Shown here one piece after another: positions 19,311-35,489 of a stretch of DNA of 44,731 bases. This stretch comes from a virus. The DNA lies in the IMG/VR virus record IMGVR_UViG_3300035698_016751; one strand, written 5' to 3'. Numbering within the stretch: the first letter of the stretch is position 1; every line of letters starts with the position of its first letter. Below the pieces are notes generated by a model. The model was not told where the DNA came from. It searched no databases and worked only from the letters and a program-made list of their open reading frames with translations. Position numbers and translations under genes: made by a program.

Positions 19311-20216
19311 ATGACAGATACAAATAATGTATTGGAAATAACTGGTGTGACGCACGGCTTTGGTCCCAAAAGAGTTCTGAATAATATTAATTTTGGAATT
19401 AAAGCAGGTCAAATTACTGCTATTGTGGGACCAAGTGGTTGCGGCAAATCCACATTGTTTAGAGCCATTCTCGGAACACATCCCCCTCAAGAGGGAACAA
19501 TATGTGTAGACGGTAAAGAAATGAATGGTCCGTCCGAAAAAATAGGAATTGTGTATCAGCATTATTCACTATATGATTTCCTTACTATTGGGGAGAATGT
19601 GATGTTTGGTCTTAAACTAGACCAGACATCTATCCCAGATAGAATCTTTAAGTATTTCTCATGGAGAAAATTGAGAAATAAACATAGAGCTAAAGCGGCT
19701 GAAATGTTGGAAGTAGTTGGGCTTCCTAATACTATGAGTTCATATCCAAGTGAACTTAGTGGTGGTATGAGACAAAGAGTAGCAATCGCACAAGCTCTAG
19801 TTATGAGGCCAAGTATTCTTCTTCTTGATGAGCCATTTGGTGCTTTGGATGCAGTGACGAGAATGAGTTTGCAAAGATTGTTGCTTCGTTTTTATCAAGA
19901 AAACTTGGAAGCTAAAAAAAGAGGCGAACGTCCCCCTCATACCGTCATTATTGTTACTCACGAATTGGACGAAGCTATTTATGTGAGTGATAGAATACTT
20001 GGTCTATCACAATATTATGAGGGTGCTGATGGGTCAAAGATTGTGTATGACAAACCTTCTCCTGTGTTTAGACCGGATGAGCCAGCAGATACAGATTCCT
20101 TTATGGAACAAAAGACGGAAATTACACATACAGTTATGGATGCTGATTACTGTCAATCGTATCAAGAATGTTTGACAGATTGGAGTAAACGAGCCTCCGA
20201 AGAAGGCCGAATATAA
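19311..20216 (+). CDS. ABC transporter ATP-binding protein (SsuB/TauB/NrtD-type)
   Basis: Walker A GPSGCGKST, ABC signature LSGGMRQRV, Walker B ILLLDEPF, H-loop VTHE. Start reassigned to ATG 19311 (GGAGAATAAAA SD). Confidence 0.8.
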   Translation: MTDTNNVLEITGVTHGFGPKRVLNNINFGIKAGQITAIVGPSGCGKSTLFRAILGTHPPQEGTICVDGKEMNGPSEKIGIVYQHYSLYDFLTIGENVMFGLKLDQTSIPDRIFKYFSWRKLRNKHRAKAAEMLEVVGLPNTMSSYPSELSGGMRQRVAIAQALVMRPSILLLDEPFGALDAVTRMSLQRLLLRFYQENLEAKKRGERPPHTVIIVTHELDEAIYVSDRILGLSQYYEGADGSKIVYDKPSPVFRPDEPADTDSFMEQKTEITHTVMDADYCQSYQECLTDWSKRASEEGRI

Positions 20217-20412: not shown

Positions 20413-20601
20413 ACAAGAATTTATCGACAATTACGTGGCTACTTTCCTTGCAACATTTTCGGCTATACATTATGATGATTACTGTAGCAGAGGATTACAT
20501 GAAGAATTCCACAATCAACCAGTTGAAGATGCTGAGCATCTGGCTGAGTTGGCGTGGAAAAGTTTAGAAGAACACAAGGCTTGAATCTGGAGAAAATAAA
20601 A

Positions 20602-21546
20602 ATGTCAAAAGTAGTAATGATATTGGGCTACCCTGCTTCATCGAAGGGGACACATGCCGAAGCATACATCGCTGATGGATATGTCCATCTGAATAGAGAT
20701 AAAGAGGGTGGTAAGGTTGTCTCATTATTGCCTAAGATGGAAGAAGCAATCAATGCCGGGAAAGATGTTGTTTTAGATAACCTGTTTCCTAATATTGAAT
20801 CGAGAAAACCATTTGTTGAATTGGCACATGCAATGGGTGTTGAGATTAGTTGTGATTGGATGTCAACTAGTCTGGAAGATTCACAAATAAATGCTCTTCA
20901 CAGAATGTGGAAAAGGTATGGTCAACTTTTCCTTGACCCAGCTTCTTTGAAAGCTGCGTCCGCTGATGTGAAAAAAGACTCTAATATGTTTCCGATTGTT
21001 GTTTTGTTTAAGTATAGAAAAGAGTTTGAAAAACCCACTACAGCCGAAGGGTTTTCTGTAGTAAACAAAATTCCGTTTAATCGTAACTACGATGAAAACT
21101 ATACGAATAAGGCTATCTTTTTTGATTATGATAACACACTAAGAACCAATACTGGAAATGGTAAATATCCAGTTCATCCAGATGAAGTTGTTTTGATGCC
21201 GGGAAGAAAAGAGAAAATAAAACAACTGCTGGATGAAGGGTGGTTACTTCTAGGTGTGTCGAATCAAGCTCCTATTGCAAGGAAACAATTGACAGAGGAA
21301 AATGCGATAGCTTGTTTTGATAGAACTAACGAATTGCTTGAGGCTGATATCGAAGTTGTGTATTGTCCTCATAGTGTTCCCCCATCATGTTATTGTCGCA
21401 AGCCACAAAGCGCACTTGGTGTATATTTTATCGAAAAACATAAACTGGACCCAAGAGAATGTATATTCGTGGGTGATATGACAACTGACCGCACATTCGC
21501 CTCAAGACTAAATATACCTTTTGAATATGCGAAAGATTTTTTTTAA
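20602..21546 (+). CDS. polynucleotide 5'-kinase/3'-phosphatase (T4 Pnk-like)
   Basis: N-terminal P-loop kinase MILGYPASSKGT. C-terminal HAD phosphatase motif I FFDYDNTLR, later LLGVSNQ and VGDMTTD. Start at ATG 20602 with a GGAGAAAATAAAA SD. Confidence 0.7.
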   Translation: MSKVVMILGYPASSKGTHAEAYIADGYVHLNRDKEGGKVVSLLPKMEEAINAGKDVVLDNLFPNIESRKPFVELAHAMGVEISCDWMSTSLEDSQINALHRMWKRYGQLFLDPASLKAASADVKKDSNMFPIVVLFKYRKEFEKPTTAEGFSVVNKIPFNRNYDENYTNKAIFFDYDNTLRTNTGNGKYPVHPDEVVLMPGRKEKIKQLLDEGWLLLGVSNQAPIARKQLTEENAIACFDRTNELLEADIEVVYCPHSVPPSCYCRKPQSALGVYFIEKHKLDPRECIFVGDMTTDRTFASRLNIPFEYAKDFF

Positions 21547-21617
21547 ATCATTTTCTTCTTAAATAGACATATATATGTTTGTAATACAAATATGTATTTA
21601 TCTATAAGGAGAAGGAA

Positions 21618-22409
21618 ATGCGGAAAATGAGAAATATATCCAAACAAAGATTTGGGAGACTTGTGGCAATAAAAAGAGTAGCCAACAATGATAAACATAA
21701 TAAGACTCAATGGTTGTGTAAATGCGATTGTGGAAAAGAAACAGTAGTAATTACTTCATCGTTGACAGGAGGGTTAACAAAAAGTTGTGGTTGTTTACAT
21801 AAAGAATCTATGTCCATAACAGGTAAAAAAAAAGTTAAAAAGTTGGACGGACAAAGGTTTGGAAGACTTCTTGTTTTGGAAAGAGATTATGAATATCAAA
21901 AAAAGAAAAATAGTTGTTCTGCTTATTGGAAATGTAAATGTGATTGTGGTCAAGAAAAGACTATTTGCGGTTCTAATTTAATAAGAAAAAGAGGAACCAA
22001 AAGTTGTGGTTGTTTGGCAAGAGAAATGACCACTGAACGTAACATAATACTTTTTTCTAAAAAAGATGGTGTGGCGGCTCAGAATGCCATATACTATCGT
22101 TACAAACGTGGTGCGAAGTTAAGAAATTTAAGTTTTGATTTATCTGTGGAAGAGCTTAATAGTTTTTTACAACAAAATTGTTTTTATTGTGATAGTGAAC
22201 CTAGCAATAGACATAGAAACAAACGAAAAAACTTAATACATGATTATAGCTATAATGGGATAGATAGAAAAAATAATAAAAAAGGTTATTCTTTAGATAA
22301 TTGTGTCCCCTGTTGTAGGATTTGTAATAAAGCGAAAGATGTTATGTCTTTGAAAGAATTTGCAGAATGGATACAATCTGTTCAAACGTCGTCTTGGATA
22401 ATTAATTAA
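21618..22409 (+). CDS. HNH homing-endonuclease-like protein with a duplicated N-terminal module
   Basis: Two tandem copies of QRFGRL(V/L)..(K/E)R....W(L/K)CKCDCG(K/Q)E..(V/I)....L..G.TKSCGCL. The C-terminal HNH core is CFYCD...GIDRKNNKKGYSLDNCVPCCRICNKAK. Confidence 0.7.
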   Translation: MRKMRNISKQRFGRLVAIKRVANNDKHNKTQWLCKCDCGKETVVITSSLTGGLTKSCGCLHKESMSITGKKKVKKLDGQRFGRLLVLERDYEYQKKKNSCSAYWKCKCDCGQEKTICGSNLIRKRGTKSCGCLAREMTTERNIILFSKKDGVAAQNAIYYRYKRGAKLRNLSFDLSVEELNSFLQQNCFYCDSEPSNRHRNKRKNLIHDYSYNGIDRKNNKKGYSLDNCVPCCRICNKAKDVMSLKEFAEWIQSVQTSSWIIN

Positions 22410-24344: not shown

Positions 24345-24602
24345 ATGTTATCCATGATAATTGCATCAAACGCACACGCACAACTAATATGGGAATTTTG
24401 TATAATATTTTTTGGTAGCTTGGCGTCAATCGGAATAATATGGTTCATATGTGCGGCCTCCGTTGAATGGTGGCAAGACCACCAAGCACAGAAAGAATAT
24501 AAACGGTATAGGGCACAACAAAAGAACAGACAAATTAAAAGGCAGAAATTGCCAAGTAATAAAAATGCACATGCCATTAATGCTTGGAGAAAAAAGACCT
24601 AA
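24345..24602 (+). CDS. small membrane protein with a basic tail (85 aa)
   Basis: Two hydrophobic helices, then a K/R/Q-rich C-terminus. Confidence 0.35.
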   Translation: MLSMIIASNAHAQLIWEFCIIFFGSLASIGIIWFICAASVEWWQDHQAQKEYKRYRAQQKNRQIKRQKLPSNKNAHAINAWRKKT

Positions 24603-24787
24603 TGAAACCTAAACCTAAACCTAAACCTAAACCTAAACCTAAACCTAAACCTAAACCTAAACCTAAACCTAAAGATATATTTACATTACGTCATAAATCA
24701 GAACAGGAGTTGCAGCAAGATATGTTTACACTCCTGTTGAATAGGGGAATGCTCCCCGGTTATGTTGTATTGCCTAGAAAAAAATAG
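24602..24787 (+). CDS. small protein with an N-terminal (Lys-Pro)11 repeat
   Basis: ATG 24602 overlaps the upstream stop (TAATG). The repeat is encoded by (AAACCT)11. Confidence 0.4.
   Translation: MKPKPKPKPKPKPKPKPKPKPKPKDIFTLRHKSEQELQQDMFTLLLNRGMLPGYVVLPRKK
24605..24670. repeat. perfect hexanucleotide microsatellite (AAACCT)x11
   Basis: 66 bp of exact AAACCT tandem copies, in frame within the CDS. Confidence 0.95.
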
Positions 24788-25216: not shown

Positions 25217-25244
25217 TTTACAAACACGTAAGTCGCCCTATAAT
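25217..25244 (+). promoter_or_regulatory. sigma70-like promoter TTTACA-N16-TATAAT upstream of pncA
   Basis: -35 at 25217-25222 and -10 at 25239-25244. The pncA ATG lies 27 bp downstream, with a GAAAGGAAA SD. Confidence 0.45.
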
Positions 25245-25270
25245 AATAAAGACGAGAAAGGAAATATATT

Positions 25271-25909
25271 ATGAATGCACTAGTATTAGTAGACATCCAG
25301 CCTACCTTCATGCCCGGAGGTGGCTTGCCAGTTCCGAAAGGTGACGAAGTAGTTCCGGTGGCCAACGAAATGATTAAAAAGTTTGAGGCTGCTGGGGATA
25401 TTGTAGTCGTAACACAGGATTGGCACCCTGAAGACCACTGTAGTTTTGCAGAATGCTACAAAGGGCCAGATGCCCCATACGCAATTTTTGATAAAGTGGT
25501 TACACAAGGAGTCGAACGTACATTGTGGCCCAAACATGGTGTACAAGACACCGCAGAAGCAGAACCCCATCCCGATTTGAAATTAAGTGAATCGACCATA
25601 TTTATTAAAAAAGGTATGGACCCAAATGTTGATAGCCATAGTGCATTCTGGGGCCACGCACGACAAACCAATACTGGCCTCGCTGCCAAGCTTCGTGAAG
25701 CTGGGGTTTTGCCGGGAAGCAAGGTATTTTTCTTGGGTCTTGCAACAGGTGTTTGTCTAATTCTTTCAGCACTCGATTCAGTTGAAGAAGGCTATGAAAC
25801 AATAGTAATCATTGATGGATGCCGTGCGATTTCGTCCGAAAGTCACCGTAAAGCTGTAGCCGACATGGTTGATGCAGGAATATCAGTTGTGTTTTCCCGT
25901 CACGTATAA
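25271..25909 (+). CDS. pncA: nicotinamidase / pyrazinamidase (isochorismatase fold)
   Basis: Aligns along its length with E. coli PncA. LVLVDIQPTF matches LLLVDLQNDF (catalytic Asp), VTQDWHPEDH matches ASQDWHPANH (metal-binding His), K at the FIKKG position, and the catalytic Cys in FLGLATGVC matches MGLATDYC. Confidence 0.8.
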   Translation: MNALVLVDIQPTFMPGGGLPVPKGDEVVPVANEMIKKFEAAGDIVVVTQDWHPEDHCSFAECYKGPDAPYAIFDKVVTQGVERTLWPKHGVQDTAEAEPHPDLKLSESTIFIKKGMDPNVDSHSAFWGHARQTNTGLAAKLREAGVLPGSKVFFLGLATGVCLILSALDSVEEGYETIVIIDGCRAISSESHRKAVADMVDAGISVVFSRHV

Positions 25910-25928
25910 ATACAACTTCTAGGTTTAC

Positions 25929-25970
25929 AAAACGCCTTACTGGTCTATAATCAGGTCAGTAAGGCGTTTT
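25929..25970 (+). terminator. hairpin terminator after pncA that also carries a promoter
   Basis: 14-bp stem AAAACGCCTTACTG / CAGTAAGGCGTTTT followed by T-rich sequence. A sigma70-like TTTACA (25924-25929) -N16- TATAAT (25946-25951) lies inside it. Confidence 0.7.
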
Positions 25971-26013
25971 CTATTAGTTACCTTGTACATGAGAGTACAG
26001 AAAGGAACACACT

Positions 26014-27225
26014 ATGTTACTACTTCCAGCCCAATCTGTTCTCGATACAGATTTATACAAATTATCCCAACAGGCAGCTATACTTGCTAAATATCCTAAC
26101 GTCGATATGGAGTGGCGATGGGCCAATCGTAATGGGACACCATTTAGTAATAAGGCGGTAGACGCCATTCGTGAAAATATTGAAAGGATGGCAGAGCTTA
26201 AAGTCAATGATGAACAGATGGCAGCTTTTGCAAAAGCCTGTTCGTTCTTCAATCCTTCTTACTTTGCATATCTGAAAAATTACAGATTCAATCCTAAAGA
26301 AGTGAAAATCACTCAGGATAATGATGAAAACTTTGCAATGTCTTTTCGTGGAAAATGGCATAGCAATATTTTGTGGGAAATTCCGGGGTTGTTCATCCCC
26401 AGTGATGCATACTACAAGTTTGACGATACAGACTGGTCAGATGAAGGACAAGAAGCTTTGCTGCGTGAAAAAGGGAAATTCCTTTGGAACTGTACCTTTG
26501 CTGATTTCGGAACAAGGCGAAGAAGAAATTTTGAATCTCAAGACCGTGCTGTAAGAATTCTGAAAGATAACCCCGGCTTTGTTGGGACCAGCAATGTTCA
26601 CTTGGCTTTGAAGTATGGTGTAAAGCCAATTGGCACTTTAGCACATGAATGGATTATGGCACATCAGGTTTTGTCTGGTATTCGTCATTGTAATAGAGCA
26701 GCGATGCAGGCATGGAATGATGTTTACAAAGGCAATTTGGGTATCGCCCTTCCTGATACCATTGGTTCTGATTCATTCTTTGCTGATTTTGATGGTGTTC
26801 TTAGCAGGTTGTTTGATGGCACCAGACACGACAGTGGTTGTCCTTATGAATATGGTGAAAAGACAATTGCTCACTATGAGAGTTTGGGAATTAATCCATG
26901 TTCAAAGGTTATCATCTTTAGTGATGGATTGCGTGCCAATGCCGATGCGAGTCCTGAAAGAAATCCTGAAAAAATCAGAAAATATTTTGAAGGACGTATT
27001 AAGACATCATTTGGTATTGGAACAGATTTCACAAATGATTTCCCCGGTAGTCCTGCGTTGAATATCGTAGTCAAACCTTATACAGTCAATAATATTCATG
27101 TTGTTAAATATCCCGATAGTGCGGGAAAAGCGATGGGCGACCCTGATGCACAGAGAGTTGTACGATATATTTCCCGTGGAATCTCGCTGGATACTCCGTT
27201 GGCTTCATTAAAAAAGGGAAAATAA
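26014..27225 (+). CDS. pncB: nicotinate phosphoribosyltransferase
   Basis: Collinear with E. coli PncB. Shared motifs are LDTDLYKL (LDTDAYKL), DFGTRRR, GTSNVHLA (GTSNYDLA), TLAHEWIMAHQ (TQAHEWFQAHQ), GIALPDT, RHDSGCPYEYGEKTIAHYESLGINPCSKVIIFSDGL, SFGIGT and LNIVVK. Confidence 0.85.
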   Translation: MLLLPAQSVLDTDLYKLSQQAAILAKYPNVDMEWRWANRNGTPFSNKAVDAIRENIERMAELKVNDEQMAAFAKACSFFNPSYFAYLKNYRFNPKEVKITQDNDENFAMSFRGKWHSNILWEIPGLFIPSDAYYKFDDTDWSDEGQEALLREKGKFLWNCTFADFGTRRRRNFESQDRAVRILKDNPGFVGTSNVHLALKYGVKPIGTLAHEWIMAHQVLSGIRHCNRAAMQAWNDVYKGNLGIALPDTIGSDSFFADFDGVLSRLFDGTRHDSGCPYEYGEKTIAHYESLGINPCSKVIIFSDGLRANADASPERNPEKIRKYFEGRIKTSFGIGTDFTNDFPGSPALNIVVKPYTVNNIHVVKYPDSAGKAMGDPDAQRVVRYISRGISLDTPLASLKKGK

Positions 27226-27367
27226 TGATTGATAAAATTATCACATTAACGGAAGAAGAATCAAAAAGATTGACGGAAAGACCGTTAAAAGTTGCGGGAA
27301 AAGATTTTGAAGAATTAGAAGATTGGAGAAATCGTTCTCGCAGGTCAAATATTAGGGTAAATTAAAA

Positions 27368-29134
27368 ATGAAAATACTTATTGCACAAACCAATACTACT
27401 CCGAATGATTTTGAAGGTAACTTTCAACAAATCAAAGATGCTATTGATGCGGGATTGAATAAGGTAGACCTTATCATCACCCCAGAATTATCAATTCCGG
27501 GGTATCTCGTAAAAGACATGATGTATGATGATTCTTTCATTGAAGGAAATCTTAAAACTCTACAACAAGTAGTAAAAGCAACTAATTGGTCAGTTCGTAA
27601 GACTGAAGACACTGCAACAACCTATGTGGTAGTAGGCTACATTGATAAAAACCGAACTGGCAAAGGTAAGCCATTCAAAAACATGCTTGCTGTTATCTGT
27701 GATGGGGCTATTGTTGCAACATATCAGAAAAGACTTCTTCCTTTTTATGATGTATTTGATGAAGGACGATATTTTGAGCCGGGAACCGAAGGAACTGTCA
27801 TTGAGATAGCAGGAGAAAAATGGGGTCTAGCTATCTGTGAAGACATCTTTAATGATAAAGGCATGGATGATTATAACTATGCCACGAATCCTCTTGCTGA
27901 GTATCGTAAAATAGGTGTCAATAATATCATCAGTATAAATAGTTCTCCTTTCGTTATGGGGAAACCCAAAGAACGAGCCGATATGGTGCGAGAGAGTTTC
28001 AAAAATGGAACTATAATTTATTGTAATCAAACAGGTGGTCAGGATGATTTGGTGTTTGATGGTCACAGTATGATTGTTCAAAATGATAAGGTGTTGTTGT
28101 TTGCGGATGCAGAAACACCATTGATAGATTTTGATTTTGAAAATTGTTCACAAAATGATGTTATCAAGATGTCACAAATTGTTGGAAACCAAGCGGATGA
28201 CCGAATAGCTTCTCTTTATCAAATGGGCGTTATCGGCTTGAGAGATTATATCCAAAAAAATGGATTTAAAACAGCCGTATTCGGAAGTAGTGGAGGAATT
28301 GATAGTGCATTAGTTGCTGCAATGCTTTGTGATGCCATAGGACCGGAAAACGTGTACGGCATAAGAATGCCTAGTGTGATAAGTAGTTCACACTCCGTTG
28401 ATGATGCTGGTGCGCTTCAAAAGAATTTCGGGTTTAATGATTTTCTTGTTCCCATTGAACACAAAGACAATCTGAAGAAATATAATGAGATATTTCTTCC
28501 GCTCGACAGTCCGCCCCTTGCTAATGGACAATATAATGCTGTTGCTGACGAAAATATACAAGCTAGAATTCGTGGCATGATTGTCATGCACTTCTCAAAT
28601 GCATTCGGAGCAATTCCGATAGCAACGGGCAATAAATCTGAACTTTCAGTTGGATACTGTACTCTTTATGGTGATATGTGCGGTGGATTTGCTCCACTCA
28701 GTGATGTATACAAGATGGATGTATACGCATTGGCTGAATATCGTAATAAAAATGGAGTCATGATTCCTGTTTCCATTATAGAAAAAGCACCGAGTGCAGA
28801 GTTGTCGGAAGGGCAAGAAGATTCAGATTCTCTTCTTCCTTATCCTATTCTGGATATGATTCTGTTTGGTCTGGTTGAACATCACATTAGTAGTTTCGAA
28901 AAATTCTGTGCTGTTTATAAAGATATGGTTTCAGAAGCCTATGGGTCTTCTTCAAATAAATCAATCGGTATTATAAAAGATTGGATTAAAAACGAAGGTG
29001 CGGAACAAGCATATAATAAAACAATCCAAATGGTTAACAGAAACGAATTCAAGCGAAGACAAGCCGCACCGGGAATTAAGTTCAGTAAAGTAGCCTTTGG
29101 GTCTGGTCGGCGTATGCCAATCACGAAAAAGTAA
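27368..29134 (+). CDS. nadE: glutamine-dependent NAD+ synthetase (N-terminal nitrilase/CN-hydrolase domain plus C-terminal NAD synthetase domain)
   Basis: N-terminus MKILIAQTN...ITPELSIPGY with the catalytic Cys in GLAICEDIF (CN hydrolase E-K-C triad). C-terminal ATP pyrophosphatase P-loop FGSSGGIDSALVAAM. At 588 aa it matches two-domain NadE. Confidence 0.85.
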   Translation: MKILIAQTNTTPNDFEGNFQQIKDAIDAGLNKVDLIITPELSIPGYLVKDMMYDDSFIEGNLKTLQQVVKATNWSVRKTEDTATTYVVVGYIDKNRTGKGKPFKNMLAVICDGAIVATYQKRLLPFYDVFDEGRYFEPGTEGTVIEIAGEKWGLAICEDIFNDKGMDDYNYATNPLAEYRKIGVNNIISINSSPFVMGKPKERADMVRESFKNGTIIYCNQTGGQDDLVFDGHSMIVQNDKVLLFADAETPLIDFDFENCSQNDVIKMSQIVGNQADDRIASLYQMGVIGLRDYIQKNGFKTAVFGSSGGIDSALVAAMLCDAIGPENVYGIRMPSVISSSHSVDDAGALQKNFGFNDFLVPIEHKDNLKKYNEIFLPLDSPPLANGQYNAVADENIQARIRGMIVMHFSNAFGAIPIATGNKSELSVGYCTLYGDMCGGFAPLSDVYKMDVYALAEYRNKNGVMIPVSIIEKAPSAELSEGQEDSDSLLPYPILDMILFGLVEHHISSFEKFCAVYKDMVSEAYGSSSNKSIGIIKDWIKNEGAEQAYNKTIQMVNRNEFKRRQAAPGIKFSKVAFGSGRRMPITKK

Positions 29135-29145
29135 GGAATAGAACA

Positions 29146-29511
29146 ATGTTAAAAAAAATATGTATTTTTTTCATGTGGCTATGTATATTCTTTGTAATGA
29201 TATTAGCTGTACTAGTCGTTGACCACATATGGCAAACGAGCAAATCTAATACGCCATCACGAAAAGAATGCATCAGCCTAGGCTTCCGGGGGGATATGAG
29301 TTGGTGGTCGCATAATAACCGAGTGATTATCAATTCCCCAGATAATAAGTATCATGGGCTAGTTGGCGAGTTGAAGGAATGGAAAGAGAATGCCAAGTTG
29401 TGGCTTGTATACTTATATGATAGAAATGGTAATATTCAATGTGTTAATTTTAAGCCGAGCCAAATTTGCAATATTTCCTGTGGTGAAAAGATGCCTGTGG
29501 TGAAAAAATGA
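29146..29511 (+). CDS. small signal-anchored hypothetical protein (121 aa)
   Basis: N-terminal hydrophobic segment ICIFFMWLCIFFVMILAVLVV. Sits between nadE and nadD. Confidence 0.35.
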   Translation: MLKKICIFFMWLCIFFVMILAVLVVDHIWQTSKSNTPSRKECISLGFRGDMSWWSHNNRVIINSPDNKYHGLVGELKEWKENAKLWLVYLYDRNGNIQCVNFKPSQICNISCGEKMPVVKK

Positions 29512-30380
29512 ATGAAACACAAAAAAAAGTAAATGCGGTGTTCACTGAAAGCTTTGGTAGGACTCCACTCAAACTAAGGCAAAAAGATATTTTTGGTGAA
29601 GCTTTAGAATTGCTACGTGCCACCGACCTGAGAAACCTAAAGGAAGAGACAGGAGATTGTTTGGCATCTTTACACCAACTCTGCAATGAGTGTGGTTGGG
29701 ATGCAAATGAACTTATTAATGATACTTTGATAAAAATAGGTCTAAGGGCAGAGCAATATAAATCTCTTGGACGTAAAATAAAAGTAGCAATCTTAGGTGG
29801 TGCGTTCAATCCCATTCACAAGGGACACATCGAATGTGCTAAATTGGTTCTTGATACTTGTAAGACATTCGATGAAGTTTGGCTTATGCCATGCTACGGA
29901 CACATGTATGGAAAACAAATGGTTTCTCCCGAACACAGAATAGCTATGGCAAAATTGGCTTGTAAAACTGATGGAAGAATCAAAGTATGCGAATATGAAA
30001 TTGACAATCAATTAAAGGGAGAAGCATATTTTCTCCTGTCTAAATTGATGGATGAAGATTTTGCTAAGGATAAATTTGACTTTTCCTTCATTATAGGAAT
30101 GGACAATGCTAATACTTTTGACCAGTGGGTAAACTACGAACACTTGGAAAGACTTATAAGGTTCGTTATAGTGCCTAGGACGGGCGTAGAAAGAGATGAA
30201 TCCATTAATTGGTATCTCAACCCCCCGCACATTTATATTAGCGGAGAGAAGCCCCTGCTTGATATTTCTTCCTCAGAAATAAGAGATATGGTTACAGCTA
30301 AGAATTGGCAAGCAGTTGAACAGGTACTAGACCCTGCGGTTATAGAATATATAATTAAAAATGGATTGTACGGAGACTAA
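29508..30380 (+). CDS. nadD: nicotinate-nucleotide adenylyltransferase with an N-terminal MazG-like all-alpha NTP-pyrophosphatase-like extension
   Basis: Residues about 100-290 carry VAILGGAFNPIHKGHIECAK (NadD G-G-x-F-x-P-x-H-x-x-H) and ISSSEIR. Residues about 20-95 (FGEALELLRATDLRNLKEETGDCLASLHQLCNECGWDANELINDTLIK) fit the MazG/HisE EE-xx-E/D helix pattern. Confidence 0.75.
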   Translation: MNETQKKVNAVFTESFGRTPLKLRQKDIFGEALELLRATDLRNLKEETGDCLASLHQLCNECGWDANELINDTLIKIGLRAEQYKSLGRKIKVAILGGAFNPIHKGHIECAKLVLDTCKTFDEVWLMPCYGHMYGKQMVSPEHRIAMAKLACKTDGRIKVCEYEIDNQLKGEAYFLLSKLMDEDFAKDKFDFSFIIGMDNANTFDQWVNYEHLERLIRFVIVPRTGVERDESINWYLNPPHIYISGEKPLLDISSSEIRDMVTAKNWQAVEQVLDPAVIEYIIKNGLYGD

Positions 30381-30851
30381 TAATTTTAATAATTTACGGG
30401 CAAGAGGAGAAAGTTCCTTCTTGTAAACTTCCTTCTTACGGCCTTGTGCCCATCCTGCGTCAAGGGCTTTCTCACACTGTTCAATTGCCCAATTAATATC
30501 ATATTCAGACACCATTTTCAAGAATAGTTTTCGTTGCGGTTCGCAGCATTTATCAAGCAATTGTTCCAGTATTTTCCTGCGGTAATTATTAACTTTTTTC
30601 AACGCTTGACTATGAGCAACAACTCTTCGCTTCTCGTTCTGACACTTCTCGGCGTTAGCTAAATAAAAGTAACTATTTTTTATGTGATATCTCGTACTCT
30701 CGCCTGCCCAACCATGTAATTGTACCGTTTCAGAATGAATGTGATAATGATTTTTATATGGAACAATATAGACAATATCAACACCCGGAACAACATGCAC
30801 ACCGTCTTTTGTTTTGTGAAGTTTCGATAGAATTTCGTCTTTTGAAATCAT
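30327..30851 (-). CDS. hypothetical protein (174 aa)
   Basis: ORF. Its 3' end overlaps the 3' end of nadD convergently by 54 bp. Confidence 0.35.
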   Translation of the reverse strand: MISKDEILSKLHKTKDGVHVVPGVDIVYIVPYKNHYHIHSETVQLHGWAGESTRYHIKNSYFYLANAEKCQNEKRRVVAHSQALKKVNNYRRKILEQLLDKCCEPQRKLFLKMVSEYDINWAIEQCEKALDAGWAQGRKKEVYKKELSPLARKLLKLLVSVQSIFNYIFYNRRV

Positions 30852-31060
30852 TATTCCATTCCTTTGGGGTAGTCCCGGCGTAATTGAGCAATTGCTTCAG
30901 CTATCTGTTCTGGTGTAGCTTCTTTGTAAAATTTATGAATAGCACGTATTTTACGTTTAGTTAAGTATATGGTGACTATACAAGCAACCAACATACTCGT
31001 AATATATGATGCTATAAAAAATAGAAATAATTTCCAATCTACCATTATAAATTCTCCCAC
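30851..31060 (-). CDS. small single-TM membrane protein (69 aa)
   Basis: Hydrophobic helix LFFIASYITSMLVACIVTIYL. Coupled to the downstream gene. Confidence 0.3.
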   Translation of the reverse strand: MGEFIMVDWKLFLFFIASYITSMLVACIVTIYLTKRKIRAIHKFYKEATPEQIAEAIAQLRRDYPKGME

Positions 31061-31392
31061 ATGTCGTAAGGTATTATGTCTTTCACATCAACATCCCAGT
31101 TCTTATTCTGTAGCCTTCTGATAGCTACAACTTTACTATCATCTATTAAAATTCTAGGAGATTGTACATTAAACAATATCGGAGCATCGAAATCAAGTTC
31201 TTTTATTAATTTATATGTATTTTCAACGCTCCAGACTGTTCCAGCATCTCTATCTTCATCTCGCATTGTTATAAATATAACATTATGACCTTCTTTATGA
31301 AGGCGGTTTAACATCTCTTTAGCTCCATCTAGCCATTGGCTTGTGTGGTAATTAACAATTGTCCCATCAATATCAAATAAATATGCTGCCAT
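31045..31392 (-). CDS. small HAD-superfamily phosphatase-like protein
   Basis: Motif I YLFDIDGTIV (DxDGT), then VIFITMRDED. A minimal HAD core. Confidence 0.5.
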   Translation of the reverse strand: MAAYLFDIDGTIVNYHTSQWLDGAKEMLNRLHKEGHNVIFITMRDEDRDAGTVWSVENTYKLIKELDFDAPILFNVQSPRILIDDSKVVAIRRLQNKNWDVDVKDIIPYDMWENL

Positions 31393-31404
31393 TTTTTGTT
31401 TCTC

Positions 31405-32100
31405 CTAGGAAAAGGAATTGGAACCGTGCTTAGATAAGAATAATGGTCTCTTGGGCTTGATACCCTGCGTATGGTTATTTTCATTGAATAATGAACTGAT
31501 TAATTCTTTTTCTTTCCTCTGTTTTTGTTGTTCGTTTGCCTTATTAGGATTCCAATTCTTCATTAGGTATTCATAAGCTTTTCTACTATTTTCCCCACCG
31601 TCAGGTAATTTGTCTAATTCTTTGGCTCGTGCTAAGGATAACGCTTCGGCTTGTACTGCGGTGTCTGGTGCATTAGATAAGGATGCTGCTTCGTCATGAA
31701 AACCCTTTAAACAAAGAATTTTCCGTGCTTTTTTGAGTAATTTATCTTGTTCTTTTCTAATTGCAATTGATTCAATCTGGTCTTTACGTAAGTTTTGTTC
31801 TATTAATCTTTGTTGACATTTCCTACAAAATACAACTCCCTTCATAAAATTATGTCCCGCACGAAACGGCGGTCCTATTAAATCTTCACAATTTGGAAAG
31901 GCGTGCCAAGGATGACCAAAATCACCAACAAAGCATTTAATACCCATCTTTATGAGTCTTTCATGATATTGGTCTTCGTTTTCGTACCATTTTTTCCAAT
32001 AAGACTCGCTCATTTCCCCTTTAGCGAGTTCTTTGGCTTTGAGTTGTAAATAGTCTTTTTTTTGCTTTGGTTTCCAATTTAAGTTTATTTTTCTTGTCAT
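31405..32100 (-). CDS. Cys/His-rich hypothetical protein, paralog of the upstream gene
   Basis: Starts MTRKINLNWK, identical at the nucleotide level over about 30 nt with the neighbouring gene. Contains one HPWHAFPNCEDL...FCRKCQ module. Confidence 0.4.
   Translation of the reverse strand: MTRKINLNWKPKQKKDYLQLKAKELAKGEMSESYWKKWYENEDQYHERLIKMGIKCFVGDFGHPWHAFPNCEDLIGPPFRAGHNFMKGVVFCRKCQQRLIEQNLRKDQIESIAIRKEQDKLLKKARKILCLKGFHDEAASLSNAPDTAVQAEALSLARAKELDKLPDGGENSRKAYEYLMKNWNPNKANEQQKQRKEKELISSLFNENNHTQGIKPKRPLFLSKHGSNSFS
32072..32100. repeat. direct repeat copy 1 (TTCCAATTTAAGTTTATTTTTCTTGTCAT)
   Basis: Copy 2 lies at 33027-33055. Both encode MTRKINLNW at the 5' ends of the adjacent paralogs. 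Confidence 0.85.
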
Positions 32101-32104
32101 TATT

Positions 32105-33091
32105 TTATCTCGTGGAAGGATATAGTTGTTTGTGTTGTGTAATTAACCAATTTTCATCACATTGTTCAAGCATAGCTTCTGGTTCCTCGCATTCCCCTTC
32201 CAGATAAACATGACAATCTAAACCACATCTTCCAGACATTCCAACATTAAAGCATCCGTTGTGGTTTATGACTCTTTTTTTTGGAACATTTGTTACTTCG
32301 GAAACCCAATCTTTTAGGGCCGATACCGCAGGTGGAGATGAATATAAGGTTGATACTGTATGTGGTGGTTTTGGAGGAACAACACATTCCGCTCTTGGTC
32401 CTGTGGGTTGATAACCTGATGATAATGGTTTATCTTCTGGTTTTGGATTATACCCTTTAAGTCTTATTTTGGGTTTGGGTTGTACTTCTTGTGTTTCAGT
32501 ACAATTTTTACAAATTGGTATGTTCTGTTTTTGATGTTTACACCATCGTTGTAAGCCTGCATGTGAGATTTTAATTGCTGCACCTTTTATTGCATTACAA
32601 TTGTTGGAAGTGTGCCAACAACTCAACCTACTAAGGGCAGACTCTTGGGTGCTGATAAAAATATTTGCGTAACAATTAGGGGTTTCAAAAGCAACCGTAT
32701 TTTTTTCACTATCGGGAATTCCATTGAGTGAATCCCATACTATCATTGGTTGTGGTTTTGGTTGTGCTTCTAAAATTGCTTGGTCCATATTTTCTTGGCA
32801 TTTTTTACAGAATGGTATTTTGGTTGTATGCTGCCAGCGAGATGCCATTTGATGTACTTTACCTGTTATCATTTCACAATCTGAGAAAGCGTGCCAAACT
32901 TGTTGATTAGCCAATTCTAAAAAGCATTCGCACGGGGCTGCTGGGTCAATTTCCATCTTACTGTCATGCTCTGATATCATCTTCATAGCATAGGACATAT
33001 CAATTATTTTGGGGCGGTGCTGCTTCTTCCAATTTAAGTTTATTTTTCTTGTCATTTTATTCTCAAAATGTGTAAGCGTATTAAAAAACAA
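32105..33091 (-). CDS. Cys/His-rich hypothetical protein with three WHxxxxC...CxxC modules. Probable start at the internal Met, position 33055
   Basis: The internal MTRKINLNWK at 33055 is identical to the start of the downstream paralog. Modules are VWHAFSDCE...FCKKCQ, CWHTSNNCN...ICKNCTE and a C-terminal CGLDCHVYLEGECEEPE. Confidence 0.4.
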   Translation of the reverse strand: MFFNTLTHFENKMTRKINLNWKKQHRPKIIDMSYAMKMISEHDSKMEIDPAAPCECFLELANQQVWHAFSDCEMITGKVHQMASRWQHTTKIPFCKKCQENMDQAILEAQPKPQPMIVWDSLNGIPDSEKNTVAFETPNCYANIFISTQESALSRLSCWHTSNNCNAIKGAAIKISHAGLQRWCKHQKQNIPICKNCTETQEVQPKPKIRLKGYNPKPEDKPLSSGYQPTGPRAECVVPPKPPHTVSTLYSSPPAVSALKDWVSEVTNVPKKRVINHNGCFNVGMSGRCGLDCHVYLEGECEEPEAMLEQCDENWLITQHKQLYPSTR

Positions 33092-33974: not shown

Positions 33975-33996
33975 TAGTTAAGATGTACATGGAGGG
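33975..33996 (+). promoter_or_regulatory. phage-type promoter box TAGTTAAGATGTACATGGAGGG
   Basis: TGTACAT family, 3 bp upstream of ATG 33999. The GGAGGG also serves as the SD. Confidence 0.55.
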
Positions 33997-33998
33997 CC

Positions 33999-35069
33999 AT
34001 GAATGTTAATGCTACAATCTGCGGTGTGAAATTGCGTGACCTGAAGGTTATGAATAGCAAGTTTGATGGTTATGATATCCATACTGGTAAACGATTCAAA
34101 GCTGGGAAACAAATTGCATATCTACATGGTAGCAATCTTACACCTAAAGAGTCAAAAGCACTATTTCCCAACGGGAAAGTGAGTGCCATTTCTGTTCGTT
34201 GGCCTCTTAGAGAGAACAAGACCAAACCGAATGAGTACAAACCCGTACCACCACAGAAGAAACGTCCTTTTGTCACACCTTTCACGCCTAGTGAAAGTCA
34301 GGAAGAAATTCTTGCTGCATTGCTTGGAAGTGAAGACCATCTTCTTATCAAGGCTTTTGCTGGAACAGGTAAAACTTCTACACTCGTTTGGTTGGTTCAA
34401 GAATTGTCCAAAAGGGGTCTGACTAAAAACAAAAAAATCATTTACTTGGCATTCAACAAAAGCATACAAGAGGAACTTGCAGAGCGATTGTCTGGAACAG
34501 GTGTCCCTGCTCTTACTACTCATGCGTTTGGATTTCAAGCAATTAAGACAGTATTTGGTGGGGAAATCAAACCTACTAGCGGCAAATGTGCTTCCACTAC
34601 ATTTCTCAAATTAGTTTGTCATGAAAATGGATTACCTATCACGGCATTAGGTTTTAGTGTCGCACGTCATGCGAAAGAATATTTGCTTCGGTCTGCTGTT
34701 CTGGAATTGGTCGGTTATATTAAATCTTGGGCAATCTGTCCCTCGTTTTTTGGCCGAAACATTGATTCACCATGGAATTTCAGTGACAAACAAAAAGAAG
34801 CTATATTTGAATTGATAGAGATGTATGAAATTGAGTTGCCAAGTGCGAATTGGACCCCAGAAGATTTGGTGAAATATGCTTGCAGCATTGTAACAAATAA
34901 TTTACCAGTTAATCATGATTTATTGGTAGAAATTGATTATGATGATATGCTTTATTTTCCACTTGTTTTCAATTTGAACCTTCCGAAATACGATTTAGTT
35001 CTGACTGATGAAAGTCAGGATTTTAATAGATGTCAGATTTTACTTCTCGAAAAAATGATTGCTGCTTAA
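33999..35069 (+). CDS. UvrD/PcrA-like SF1 helicase, N-terminal fragment (motifs I, Ia, II)
   Basis: Motif I LLIKAFAGTGKTSTLV, motif Ia LAFNKSIQEELAERL, motif II LVLTDESQDFN. The ORF stops 7 codons after motif II. Confidence 0.65.
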   Translation: MNVNATICGVKLRDLKVMNSKFDGYDIHTGKRFKAGKQIAYLHGSNLTPKESKALFPNGKVSAISVRWPLRENKTKPNEYKPVPPQKKRPFVTPFTPSESQEEILAALLGSEDHLLIKAFAGTGKTSTLVWLVQELSKRGLTKNKKIIYLAFNKSIQEELAERLSGTGVPALTTHAFGFQAIKTVFGGEIKPTSGKCASTTFLKLVCHENGLPITALGFSVARHAKEYLLRSAVLELVGYIKSWAICPSFFGRNIDSPWNFSDKQKEAIFELIEMYEIELPSANWTPEDLVKYACSIVTNNLPVNHDLLVEIDYDDMLYFPLVFNLNLPKYDLVLTDESQDFNRCQILLLEKMIAA

Positions 35070-35081
35070 AAGGAAAACAAA

Positions 35082-35474
35082 ATGCTTAACATGACACTTG
35101 CATTGACGGGAAAACGTAGAGAAACCATTTCTGGATTTTTGCGAGAAATTGCAGATGCCATAGACAGTGGCTATAGTTGGAATATACAATCTGAAGATGG
35201 GTCGGCTATAGGTGCCCTTTCCGGTGATGCTATTTCATACGCAATAGTTGGAATTACGGATAAAGGCGAAAGGGTTGTTTTCACTGACCACTATCAATCT
35301 AGGTCACATTGTTTTTCGTCTTGTACGGGTGCCGCTATTGCAGTTGCCAACAATAAAGGAATTGGGGTAGCACCTGATGGAAAAGAACATAAAATCGTTA
35401 GGTTCGTAGTCGAAGATAACGAAGGAAATACCATCTTTCATAGAAGTTCTGAGTTGCTTGTTACGATTAGTTAA
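35082..35474 (+). CDS. hypothetical protein (130 aa)
   Basis: ORF with an AAGGAAAA SD. First gene inside the helicase-splitting insertion. Confidence 0.35.
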   Translation: MLNMTLALTGKRRETISGFLREIADAIDSGYSWNIQSEDGSAIGALSGDAISYAIVGITDKGERVVFTDHYQSRSHCFSSCTGAAIAVANNKGIGVAPDGKEHKIVRFVVEDNEGNTIFHRSSELLVTIS

Positions 35475-35489
35475 GATGTACATGGAGGG
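35468..35489 (+). promoter_or_regulatory. phage-type promoter box TAGTTAAGATGTACATGGAGGG
   Basis: Identical 22-mer to the box at 33975. Overlaps the stop codon of the upstream ORF. Confidence 0.55.

What the first reader, a model, noticed from the sequence alone, without database searches (positions are those of the whole stretch)
25217..30380. Phage-borne four-enzyme nicotinamide-to-NAD+ (Preiss-Handler) pathway: PncA, PncB, MazG-NadD, NadE
Four adjacent genes encode every step from nicotinamide to NAD+. The route runs Nam to NA (PncA), to NaMN (PncB), to NaAD (NadD), to NAD+ (glutamine-dependent two-domain NadE). All four show the expected catalytic motifs, and pncA and pncB each carry their own sigma70-like promoter. 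Nicotinamide is exactly what TIR/SIR2/SEFIR-type defence NADases release. A phage encoding the complete deamidated salvage route would therefore be a NAD+-reconstitution counter-defence. Its enzymatic logic differs from the two published phage pathways, which are ADPR-pyrophosphate synthetase plus Namat, and Nampt plus Nmnat. The pathway needs PRPP, two ATP and glutamine, a cost that suggests strong selection.
Basis: partly seen in the sequence, partly recalled or inferred. Interest (0 to 1): 0.85.

Follow-up and report, generated by a model that had tools for sequence, protein, structure and literature searches.

The report
Phage island rebuilding NAD+ from nicotinamide
A probable giant marine phage carries intact genes for all four enzymes that turn nicotinamide back into NAD+, but such gene sets were already reported in giant phages in 2024, and nobody has yet tested whether they counter bacterial immunity.

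Summary
Window 25217-30380 (+ strand) encodes PncA, PncB, a two-domain glutamine-dependent NadE and a MazG-NadD fusion. All catalytic motifs are intact, and the genes are under purifying selection (dN/dS 0.10-0.14 against a close relative). The gene order is pncA, pncB, nadE, nadD, not the order in the title. Two small unassigned ORFs sit inside the block. pncA and pncB each follow a TTTACA-N16-TATAAT promoter-like site. That motif occurs 5 times in the window against 0.6 expected.

Phage origin is well supported but indirect. The window holds no capsid or terminase gene. It is mostly genes with no database match, plus homing-endonuclease, helicase and clamp-loader genes. Its closest relatives are published huge phages. 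No cellular genome has a NadE more than about 40% identical.

The novelty claim is overstated. Li et al. 2024 described "NAD-jumbo phages" with Preiss-Handler clusters. The published 735-kb phage LR756501 holds all four genes. Five of the 80 PncB-bearing viral loci I examined have all four within 10 kb of pncB.

A counter-defence role is plausible but untested, and general NAD+ supply is an equal rival. Verdict: a new member of a known kind, of moderate interest.

The parts
25217..25244 (+). Sigma-70-like promoter (TTTACA-16-TATAAT), ending 27 nt before the pncA ATG
   Evidence: 11 of 12 consensus positions. The motif is enriched in the window: 5 hits against 0.63 expected.
25271..25909 (+). 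pncA, nicotinamidase (212 aa). It converts nicotinamide to nicotinate plus NH3.
   Evidence: Pfam Isochorismatase 76.9 bits; NF008623 167.6 bits against a 174-bit cut-off. Best PDB match is A. baumannii nicotinamidase 2wt9, E=1.6e-39. D8, K114, C162 and the metal ligands D50, H52, H89 are conserved. dN/dS is 0.10 against L006.
25929..25970 (+). Hairpin between pncA and pncB. It is probably the pncA terminator and possibly an operator. The -10 box of the pncB promoter lies in its loop.
   Evidence: Terminator-like site with an 18-pair stem (7 G-C pairs), of which 14 pairs are perfect Watson-Crick by my reading of the sequence. It is followed by a weak T-tract. Function is inferred.
25924..25951 (+). 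Second sigma-70-like promoter (TTTACA-16-TATAAT), ending 63 nt before the pncB ATG
   Evidence: 11 of 12 consensus positions.
26014..27225 (+). pncB, nicotinate phosphoribosyltransferase (403 aa). It converts nicotinate plus PRPP (ATP-stimulated) to NaMN.
   Evidence: NF003704 401 bits (cut-off 379); TIGR01514 371 bits (cut-off 270); Pfam NAPRTase plus NAPRTase_N. PDB 1yir (a chain named nicotinate phosphoribosyltransferase 2) matches at E=4e-83, with H211 conserved in GTLAHEW. dN/dS is 0.14.
27225..27365 (+). 46-codon ORF filling the pncB-nadE gap. It may be a remnant of an insertion rather than a gene.
   Evidence: Read directly from the sequence. Its ATG overlaps the pncB stop (TAATG), and its own stop lies 2 nt before the nadE ATG. 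In relative L006 this gap holds HNH-like and HTH-like ORFs instead.
27368..29134 (+). nadE, glutamine-dependent two-domain NAD+ synthetase (588 aa). It converts NaAD plus ATP plus Gln to NAD+.
   Evidence: CN_hydrolase plus NAD_synthase domains; NF010588 514 bits (cut-off 479). PDB 5kha matches at E=1e-92. E40, K121, C157 and SGGIDS 308-313 are conserved. phrog_36784 'NAD synthetase' scores 364 bits. dN/dS is 0.14.
29146..29511 (+). orf121, a small protein of unknown function with a hydrophobic N-terminal segment. Its stop overlaps the nadD start by 4 nt.
   Evidence: No hit in Pfam, NCBIfam or PHROGs. An identical copy is on the independent contig L005. Relatives carry unrelated ORFs in this slot.
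29508..29771 (+). MazG-like domain (all-alpha nucleotide pyrophosphohydrolase fold) fused to NadD (aa 1-88)
   Evidence: Pfam MazG scores 20.4 bits, below the 22-bit cut-off. E31, E34, E46, E47, D50, K76 and R80 are invariant in 31 homologues. A profile of this domain hits E. coli MazG 3cra at E=5.8e-6. The AlphaFold model shows a helical N-terminal domain, pLDDT about 90.
29772..30380 (+). NadD domain, nicotinate-mononucleotide adenylyltransferase (aa 89-290). It converts NaMN plus ATP to NaAD.
   Evidence: TIGR00482 126 bits (cut-off 112). The GGAFNPIHKGH and ISSSEIR motifs are present. The model superposes on solved NadD structures with TM 0.83-0.88 normalised to the target.

Best explanation
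This is an NAD+ salvage island in the accessory region of a large, probably huge, marine phage genome. It encodes a complete deamidating route from nicotinamide to NAD+.

- PncA deamidates nicotinamide to nicotinate.
- PncB makes NaMN from nicotinate and PRPP.
- The NadD domain of the MazG-NadD fusion adenylates NaMN to NaAD.
- The two-domain NadE amidates NaAD to NAD+ using glutamine.

pncA appears to be its own transcription unit, with a promoter in front and a hairpin behind. pncB, nadE, orf121 and mazG-nadD are packed with gaps of 11 nt or less, or with overlaps. They are therefore probably co-transcribed from the second host-type promoter.

The island lets the infected cell regenerate NAD+ from the nicotinamide that any NAD+-consuming reaction releases. 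It probably benefits the phage in two ways. It sustains NAD+ for replication, and it offsets NAD+ depletion by host NADase defences.

Shown here: gene content, catalytic residues, purifying selection, promoter motifs, and recurrence of the cluster in viral contigs. Inferred: operon structure, in vivo activity, substrate preferences, and any counter-defence effect.
For: - Family assignments clear curated cut-offs for PncB, NadE and NadD.
- Catalytic and metal-binding residues are intact in all four enzymes.
- The NadD fold is confirmed by a confident model: pLDDT 91.6, TM 0.83-0.88 normalised to solved NadD chains.
- dN/dS is 0.10-0.14 for pncA, pncB and nadE against the co-linear relative L006.
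- The promoter motif is enriched, and four of its five copies lie 27-63 nt upstream of the start of a long ORF.
- The nadE-to-mazG-nadD linkage recurs on four independent contigs at 77-100% NadD identity.
- Among the 80 best PncB-bearing IMG/VR loci, 39 have PncA, 44 NadE and 17 NadD within 10 kb. Five have all four on one strand.

Phage context:

- 17 of the 35 window ORFs outside the cassette that I scanned hit PHROG families. These include helicase, clamp loader, several HNH endonucleases and ArdC.
- Most ORFs have no Pfam hit.
- The 609-aa ORF at 10615-12444 is 56.5% identical over its full length to the 595-kb phage LR756511.
- NadE is 53.5% identical to that same phage but at most about 40% identical over its full length to any of 185,579 species-representative genomes.

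Literature:

- Defence NADases release nicotinamide plus ADPR, and NAD+ resynthesis rescues phages (abstract of 10.1101/2024.02.11.579819).
- Preiss-Handler clusters are recurrent in jumbo phages (PMC11662467).
Against: - No enzyme activity or infection phenotype is known for this cassette or for any phage Preiss-Handler cluster. Li et al. state that their results are bioinformatic only.
- PncA falls just below the NCBIfam equivalog cut-off.
- The window contains no phage structural or packaging gene and no tRNA. Close relatives are absent from IMG/VR. Phage origin is therefore indirect.
- The closest relative (L006-L009) lacks nadD at this locus. The four genes are thus not an obligate unit.
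- The cassette does not recycle the ADPR half of cleaved NAD+ and needs PRPP, 2-3 ATP and glutamine per NAD+. That makes it a slower answer to acute NADase attack than the two-step routes.
- The role of the conserved MazG domain is unexplained.
Confidence: 0.7

Rival explanations
1. The island is a purely metabolic auxiliary module. It boosts or secures NAD+ supply for a large phage with a long infection cycle, for example for NAD+-dependent phage enzymes or after host shut-off. It may also add a salvage route the host lacks. It has no specific relation to NADase-based immunity.
For: - Li et al. found complete NAD+ pathways in 174 of 668 gut jumbo phages. These came together with many NAD+-consuming enzymes and were often complementary to the host's own pathway.
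- The window carries other metabolic or uptake genes, including a complete ABC importer and a peptide-deformylase-like gene.
- The four-step route is ATP-expensive and does not reuse ADPR.
- nadD is dispensable at this locus in the closest relative.
Against: - PncA is only needed if nicotinamide, the product of NAD+ cleavage, is the input.
- PncA sits within 10 kb of PncB in 39 of 80 viral loci.
- A more distant relative places Macro and NUDIX genes (ADP-ribose processing families) beside pncB and nadE.
- NARP2 and NARP3, which are ordinary salvage enzymes, have been shown to act as counter-defences.
- The two readings are not mutually exclusive.
Confidence: 0.4
2. The window is not phage DNA. 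It comes instead from a cellular genome, such as a reduced symbiont or CPR bacterium, or from a plasmid or other mobile element. The cassette would then be that element's ordinary NAD+ salvage operon.
For: - There is no capsid, portal, terminase or tail gene in the 44.7 kb.
- ArdC-like proteins are, to my knowledge, typical of conjugative plasmids.
- The MazG-NadD fusion also occurs in a Candidatus Falkowbacteria chromosome, next to aminoacyl-tRNA synthetase and RNA polymerase genes.
- The close relative contigs are not in IMG/VR.
Against: - The window has no housekeeping, rRNA or tRNA genes.
- Most ORFs have no family match, and several HNH homing endonucleases are present.
- A helicase gene is split by an insertion.
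- Many ORFs hit phage-only PHROG families of unknown function.
- The best DNA and protein matches are to published huge phages.
- No species-representative genome has a close NadE, and plasmid matches are trivial.
Confidence: 0.1
3. The genes are real but do not work as one pathway. They are a mosaic accumulation of separately acquired enzymes with other in vivo roles. PncA might act on another amide, NadD might act as an NMN adenylyltransferase, and the MazG domain might be the selected activity.
For: - dS against L006 is 0.27 for nadE but 0.9-1.0 for pncA and pncB, which indicates different histories.
- The slots between the genes are hot spots for insertions.
- nadD is absent from this locus in L006.
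- PncA is below the equivalog cut-off.
- The MazG acidic residues are invariant, so that domain is itself under selection.
Against: - The same four families co-localise repeatedly on one strand in unrelated viral contigs with different gene orders (L027, L040, L052, L054, L081). That is the signature of functional linkage.
- The nicotinamidase-specific metal site is intact.
- NadE has no known role other than amidating NaAD, and NaAD requires NadD acting on NaMN.
Confidence: 0.1

Closest known systems
"NAD-jumbo phages" with Preiss-Handler clusters (Li et al., Microbiome 2024, PMC11662467), for example the pncB-nadD-nadE cluster of Kuafu_71
   Same: - Phage-encoded PncB, NadD and NadE are clustered as a complete deamidated route to NAD+.
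- Li et al. also propose that the pathway supports phage propagation and possibly counter-defence.
- The cluster recurs in huge-phage genomes.
   Different: - This cassette also includes PncA, so the route starts from nicotinamide rather than nicotinate. Li et al. mention phage pncA only in passing.
- NadD here is fused to a MazG-like domain.
- The source appears to be marine from the sample series, which is not verified, rather than gut.
- Genome size is unknown.
Uncultured huge phage LR756501 (735 kb) and LR756511 (595 kb). To my knowledge these are from Al-Shayeb et al. 2020.
   Same: - LR756501 encodes PncA, PncB and NadE within about 8.3 kb, plus a MazG-NadD 48.8% identical to this one.
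- LR756511 has the closest phage NadE (53.5% identity) and a 56.5% identical homologue of window ORF 10615-12444.
   Different: - In LR756501, NadE is the short type and matches only the synthetase domain of the window protein. Its NadD lies about 400 kb away from the other three genes.
- LR756511 gave no PncA or NadD hit.
- Neither record is annotated.
NARP2 (Nampt + Nmnat; Osterman et al. 2024) and the KVP40 NadV/NatV salvage pathway
   Same: - Both rebuild NAD+ from nicotinamide and PRPP with ordinary salvage enzymes carried by a phage.
- NARP2 is experimentally shown to counter NAD+-depleting defences.
   Different: - NARP2 is a two-step amidated route through NMN. The route here has four steps through nicotinate, NaMN and NaAD, with a final glutamine-dependent amidation.
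- PncB is a NAPRTase, not a Nampt: 401 bits to the PncB model against 30.6 bits to the phage Nampt PHROG.
NARP1 (Adps + Namat) and NARP3 (PnuC + NadR; PMC13464706)
   Same: These are phage-borne NAD+ reconstitution modules and would be functional analogues if the counter-defence role holds.
   Different: - NARP1 reuses ADPR through ADPR-pyrophosphate.
- NARP3 imports nicotinamide riboside.
- None of their protein families is present in this cassette.
Bacterial pncA-pncB-nadE operons, for example P. aeruginosa pncA-pncB1-nadE (PMC7318152)
   Same: The enzymes and the pncA-pncB-nadE order are the same. One PDB chain from A. baumannii (PncA, 2wt9) is among the best matches. The NadE (5kha) and PncB (1yir) matches are named only by enzyme in the output.
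   Different: Sequence identity to any cellular NadE is about 40% or less. The cassette sits in a phage-like context and is joined to a MazG-NadD fusion.

Membership tests
Nicotinamidase (PncA, isochorismatase-like hydrolase superfamily) | Asp-Lys-Cys catalytic triad | tested here: met
   D8, K114 and C162 align with the catalytic positions of A. baumannii nicotinamidase 2wt9.
Nicotinamidase (PncA, isochorismatase-like hydrolase superfamily) | Metal-binding D-x-H ... H site that sets nicotinamidases apart from other isochorismatase-like hydrolases | tested here: met
   QDWHPEDH supplies D50 and H52, and WPKHGV supplies H89. All three align to 2wt9 and 1ilw.
Nicotinamidase (PncA, isochorismatase-like hydrolase superfamily) | Score above the curated NCBIfam equivalog cut-off (NF008623) | tested here: not met
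   167.6 bits against a 174-bit cut-off, so a narrow miss. Pfam Isochorismatase is well above its own cut-off (76.9 against 27).
Nicotinate phosphoribosyltransferase (PncB) | Both NAPRTase domains present, score above curated cut-offs, and the conserved His of the GT(M/L)AHEW motif | tested here: met
   NF003704 401 bits (cut-off 379); TIGR01514 371 bits (cut-off 270); Pfam NAPRTase_N plus NAPRTase. H211 aligns with 1yir. That this His is the phosphorylation site rests on my own knowledge.
Glutamine-dependent NAD+ synthetase (two-domain NadE) | N-terminal nitrilase-type glutaminase domain with the Glu-Lys-Cys triad, fused to an ATP-pyrophosphatase synthetase domain with the SGGxDS loop | tested here: met
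   CN_hydrolase covers aa 5-240 and NAD_synthase aa 289-509. NF010588 scores 514 bits (cut-off 479). E40, K121, C157 and SGGIDS 308-313 align with 5kha.
NaMN adenylyltransferase (NadD) | Nucleotidyltransferase (H/T)xGH motif, ISSTxxR motif, NadD fold, and score above the curated cut-off | tested here: met
   TIGR00482 126 bits (cut-off 112). GGAFNPIHKGH and ISSSEIR are present. The model superposes on B. anthracis and E. faecium NadD with TMt 0.83-0.88. Preference for NaMN over NMN was not tested.
MazG-like nucleotide pyrophosphohydrolase | All-alpha domain with the acidic E-x2-E ... E-E-x2-D metal-binding motif | tested here: inconclusive
   For: E31, E34, E46, E47 and D50 are invariant in 31 homologues. 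A profile of the domain hits E. coli MazG at E=5.8e-6. The model gives a confident helical N-terminal domain. Against: the window protein alone is below the Pfam cut-off (20.4 against 22), and no fold comparison of the domain on its own was made.
NAD-jumbo phage (Li et al. 2024) | Encodes every gene of at least one complete NAD+ synthesis pathway | tested here: met
   The Preiss-Handler enzymes PncB, NadD and NadE are present, plus PncA.
NAD-jumbo phage (Li et al. 2024) | A phage with a genome larger than 200 kb | not testable with these tools
   Only 44.7 kb is available, and the longest relative contig is 55.6 kb. Affinity to 595-735-kb phages is suggestive only.
NAD+ reconstitution pathways used as counter-defence (NARP1/2/3) | Restores NAD+ and phage replication in cells expressing an NAD+-depleting defence system | not testable with these tools
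   This needs infection and metabolite assays. No published test of a phage Preiss-Handler cluster turned up in the literature searches.
NAD+ reconstitution pathways used as counter-defence (NARP1/2/3) | Component families: Adps+Namat, Nampt+Nmnat, or PnuC+NadR | tested here: not met
   The cassette proteins belong to the PncA, PncB, NadE and NadD families instead. The only Nampt-PHROG hit is weak, at 30.6 bits.

The most novel reading that the evidence does not exclude
The deamidating four-enzyme route is a genuine fourth phage NAD+ reconstitution pathway. It would rescue infection from TIR, SIR2 or SEFIR NADases by recycling the released nicotinamide. The invariant MazG active site fused to NadD would add a new activity. 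Candidates are hydrolysis of an immune signalling or toxic nucleotide, or coupling of nucleotide turnover to NaAD synthesis. Routing flux through NaMN and NaAD might also keep intermediates out of reach of NADases until the last step.
Probability: 0.3. Interest if true: 0.6.

Novelty: new member of a known kind. Interest (0 to 1): 0.35.

Why it matters
NAD+ depletion is one of the most common outputs of bacterial immunity. Three phage NAD+ rebuilding routes have been demonstrated experimentally so far.

The deamidating route is the main nicotinamide salvage pathway of many bacteria. It recurs in huge phages, yet it has only been catalogued, never tested. This cassette is compact at 5.2 kb, intact, carries its own promoters and is under purifying selection. 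That makes it a convenient construct for asking whether the Preiss-Handler route can also defeat NADase defences.

The widespread MazG-NadD fusion has invariant catalytic residues in both phages and CPR bacteria. It is an unexplained enzyme architecture worth characterising in its own right.

If the cassette only tops up NAD+, it is one more auxiliary metabolic module of giant phages.

Tried and rejected
- An exact-sequence look-up of NadE found no contig.
- Exact matches exist only on 2-kb contigs (P0001, P0121), so the source genome could not be recovered.
- Close-relative scans of IMG/VR with PncB, NadE and the MVP-like protein found nothing close.
- A megablast of window 1-24000 against phage records gave no match.
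- A tblastn of the 623-aa AAA protein against phages gave no match.
- No tRNA and no Rfam family, including NAD+ riboswitches, so there is no RNA-level regulation lead.
- Plasmid matches were limited to an 89-bp conserved nadE stretch, so a plasmid origin has no support there.
- Supplementary tables of Li et al. are not held. I could not count how many of their phages carry pncA.
- I considered whether orf121 is a conserved pathway component and rejected it. Relatives carry unrelated ORFs in that slot, including one whose sequence looks like an HNH homing endonuclease.
- I considered whether the PA5oct paper reports phage pncA-pncB-nadE. It does not; that operon is a host operon induced during infection.
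- The Foldseek search of the whole MazG-NadD model was dominated by NadD chains. It therefore gave no independent fold evidence for the MazG domain.

Full report
**1. What is in the sequence**

On the + strand between 25217 and 30380 there are six ORFs. They are pncA (25271-25909, 212 aa), pncB (26014-27225, 403 aa), a 46-codon ORF (27225-27365), nadE (27368-29134, 588 aa), orf121 (29146-29511) and mazG-nadD (29508-30380, 290 aa).

Profile searches give the following.

| Gene | Family evidence |
|---|---|
| pncA | Pfam Isochorismatase 76.9 bits; NCBIfam nicotinamidase NF008623 167.6 bits (cut-off 174, a narrow miss) |
| pncB | NF003704 401 bits (cut-off 379); TIGR01514 371 bits (cut-off 270) |
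| nadE | CN_hydrolase plus NAD_synthase domains; NF010588 514 bits (cut-off 479) |
| nadD | TIGR00482 126 bits (cut-off 112); weak N-terminal MazG hit, 20.4 bits (cut-off 22) |

The gene order is pncA, pncB, nadE, nadD, not the order in the finding's title. The four genes are not strictly adjacent.

**2. Catalytic residues**

- PncA against A. baumannii nicotinamidase 2wt9 (E=1.6e-39): D8, K114 and C162, plus the metal ligands D50, H52 and H89.
- PncB against 1yir (E=4e-83): H211 in GTLAHEW.
- NadE against 5kha (E=1e-92): E40, K121 and C157 in the glutaminase domain, and SGGIDS 308-313 in the synthetase domain.
- NadD: GGAFNPIHKGH and ISSSEIR.

An AlphaFold model of the fusion is confident (pLDDT 91.6). 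Its C-terminal domain superposes on solved NadD structures with TM 0.83-0.88 normalised to the target.

The N-terminal 88 residues form a helical domain. E31, E34, E46, E47, D50, K76 and R80 are invariant across 31 homologues. A profile of this domain finds E. coli MazG at E=5.8e-6. The "MazG-NadD" label therefore holds at profile level.

**3. Expression signals**

Two 11-of-12 sigma-70-type sites, both TTTACA-16-TATAAT, end 27 nt before the pncA start and 63 nt before the pncB start. With one mismatch allowed, the motif occurs 5 times in the window. All five are on the + strand, against 0.63 expected, and none of 100 shuffles reached 5. Four of the five lie 27-63 nt upstream of long ORFs.

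A hairpin with an 18-pair stem (25929-25970) follows pncA and carries the -10 box of the pncB promoter in its loop. I read it as the pncA terminator overlapping the next promoter. A role as an operator is possible but untested.

From pncB onward the ORFs are separated by 11 nt or less, or they overlap. This suggests one transcript. No Rfam family, including NAD+ riboswitches, was found.

**4. Is it a phage?**

The window has no capsid, portal, terminase or tail gene and no tRNA. The evidence for phage origin is therefore indirect, but it is consistent.

- Most ORFs have no Pfam family.
- Several ORFs hit phage-only PHROGs of unknown function.
- There are HNH endonucleases, a helicase split into two ORFs by about 2 kb of unmatched genes, a clamp-loader-like AAA+ protein, a polynucleotide kinase-phosphatase and an ArdC-like protein.
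- The helicase resembles those of many cultivated phages.
- The only DNA-level matches of the cassette outside a short conserved nadE stretch are to huge uncultured phages LR756500/501/503/511.
- The 609-aa ORF at 10615-12444 is 56.5% identical over its full length to LR756511 (595 kb), and weakly similar to Lak megaphages.
- NadE is 53.5% identical to LR756511. It is at most about 40% identical over its full length to anything in 185,579 species-representative bacterial and archaeal genomes, where the best hits are Bacteroidota MAGs.
- Plasmid matches are trivial.

I put phage origin at about 0.85-0.9.

**5. Relatives and selection**

Contigs L006-L009 come from JGI 3300025141, JGI 3300025122 and ENA assemblies, and reach 55.6 kb. 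They are co-linear with the window at 74-92% nucleotide identity. They carry pncA (82% aa identity), pncB (81%) and nadE (93%).

Nei-Gojobori estimates give dN/dS of 0.10, 0.14 and 0.14 for these three genes, so they are maintained by purifying selection. dS is 0.27 for nadE but 0.9-1.0 for pncA and pncB, which indicates a mosaic history.

Two blocks present in the window are missing from L006. One is 29100-33023, which includes orf121 and mazG-nadD. The other is the helicase block, 33991-38401. L006 in turn has HNH-like and HTH-like ORFs inserted between pncA, pncB and nadE.

The nadE-to-mazG-nadD junction is confirmed on independent contigs: L005 at 97-100%, L154 and L155 at 84%, and L156 at 77%. 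Each carries a different small ORF in the spacer. The cassette thus sits in a recombination-prone accessory region, and orf121 is not a conserved pathway component.

**6. How common is this?**

The MazG-NadD fusion family has more than 843 members at E<=1e-5. It occurs both in a phage-like 415-kb contig (L004) and in a Candidatus Falkowbacteria chromosome next to aminoacyl-tRNA synthetase and RNA polymerase genes (L001-L003).

In IMG/VR, 279 viral contigs encode PncB relatives. I examined the 80 best loci, each with 10 kb either side.

| Feature within 10 kb of PncB | Loci (of 80) |
|---|---|
| PncA | 39 |
| NadE | 44 (15 two-domain) |
| NadD | 17 (4 with the MazG domain) |
| All four on one strand | 5 (L027, L040, L052, L054, L081) |

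The most compact of the five is L054, where all four genes span 3.3 kb. The neighbours of L040 and L054 include Thg1, Ro60/TROVE, RNA ligase and dCMP deaminase. To my knowledge these are typical of huge phages.

The published 735-kb phage LR756501 has PncA, a short NadE and PncB within 8.3 kb, and a MazG-NadD elsewhere in the genome. The cultivated jumbo phage Atu_ph07 carries annotated NAPRTase and NAD synthetase genes.

**7. Literature**

- Li et al. 2024 (PMC11662467) named "NAD-jumbo phages". They report complete Preiss-Handler clusters (pncB-nadD-nadE in Kuafu_71), mention phage pncA, and suggest a role in propagation or counter-defence. They stress that everything is bioinformatic.
- Earlier surveys of jumbo phages and viral NAD+ systems covered only the amidated NadV plus NadM/NadR route (PMC7824862, PMC9503650).
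- The experimentally shown pathways are NARP1 and NARP2 (10.1101/2024.02.11.579819) and NARP3, which is PnuC plus NadR (PMC13464706).
- I found no paper testing a phage deamidating route.

**8. Interpretation**

The best-supported reading is a functional NAD+ salvage island of a huge phage. It converts nicotinamide to NAD+ by the deamidating route (confidence about 0.7).

Whether the selected benefit is counter-defence or general NAD+ supply cannot be decided from sequence.

For a nicotinamide-recycling, defence-related role:

- PncA is frequently linked to PncB in viral loci.
- Macro and NUDIX genes flank pncB and nadE in a more distant relative.
- There is the precedent of NARP2 and NARP3.

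Against it:

- The route is costly and slow.
- ADPR is not recycled.
- nadD is dispensable at this locus in the closest relative.
- The module is broadly associated with the general metabolic autonomy of giant phages.

The function of the conserved MazG active site on NadD remains unexplained.

**9. Verdict**

The cassette is a new member of a known kind. Interest is moderate (0.35). It is a clean, testable candidate for a fourth NAD+ reconstitution route, but it would not surprise a specialist.

Noticed in passing
window 1447-4071 (+): An 874-aa ORF is a homologue of the eukaryotic major vault protein. Pfam MVP_shoulder scores 83.7 bits. PDB MVP chains match at E about 1e-11 over aa 488-830, and the overall length is nearly the same as theirs. 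Viral MVPs were first reported in a 2023 preprint (10.1101/2023.11.10.566534). VWA-domain ORFs lie nearby at 12494-13372.
   Followed up: partly
window 17334-20216 (+): A complete ABC importer of the nitrate/sulfonate/taurine type lies 5 kb upstream of the NAD+ cassette. It consists of a substrate-binding protein (17334-18398), a permease (18511-19308) and an ATPase (19287-20216). The substrate is unknown. The ATPase is truncated or split in relatives L006-L009.
   Followed up: partly
window 33999-38233 (+): A helicase gene is split into two ORFs, 33999-35069 and 37115-38233. They match consecutive halves of phrog_1967 (profile positions 149-387 and 390-668). About 2 kb holding three ORFs with no family match separates them. 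No intron family was detected by Rfam, and the whole block is absent from relative L006.
   Followed up: partly
window 4373, 10536, 16304, 25217, 25924 (+): A shared promoter-like motif, TTTACA-N16-TATAAT, occurs five times. All copies are on the + strand and most lie 27-63 nt upstream of long ORFs, against 0.63 expected. It is probably the class of host-RNA-polymerase promoters this element uses.
   Followed up: partly
L001-L003 (Candidatus Falkowbacteria) and L004 (415-kb phage-like contig): The MazG-NadD fusion is a large family, with more than 843 proteins about 55-60% identical to the window's copy. It is shared between CPR bacterial chromosomes and huge phages, and the MazG acidic residues are invariant. 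The reason for fusing a nucleotide pyrophosphohydrolase to NadD is unknown.
   Followed up: partly
137-kb JGI contig carrying P0126 (no DNA held) and L010: A more distant relative places a sigma-70-like factor, a Macro domain protein, pncB, a GIY-YIG endonuclease, nadE and a NUDIX hydrolase side by side. A ribonucleotide reductase containing inteins lies next to them. This looks like an NAD+/ADP-ribose metabolism island.
   Followed up: no
window 40974-41885 (+); 20554-22409 (+); 9362-10525 (+); 15660-16157 (+): Other accessory genes are present: an ArdC-like antirestriction and zincin protein; a polynucleotide kinase-phosphatase next to an HNH endonuclease; a second HNH endonuclease and a weak 2H-phosphoesterase match; and a peptide-deformylase-like ORF.
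   Followed up: no
window 24584-24787 (+); 31405-33091 (-): A small ORF contains a long (Lys-Pro)n repeat. Two neighbouring Cys-rich ORFs on the minus strand are paralogues that share the peptide MTRKINLNWK. None of them has a family match.
   Followed up: no
L040 and L054 (IMG/VR huge-phage contigs): In other viral contigs the four-gene NAD+ clusters sit next to RNA-repair and vault-related families: Ro60/TROVE with a vWA domain, Thg1 and RNA ligase. They also sit next to dCMP deaminase and a radical SAM protein.
   Followed up: no
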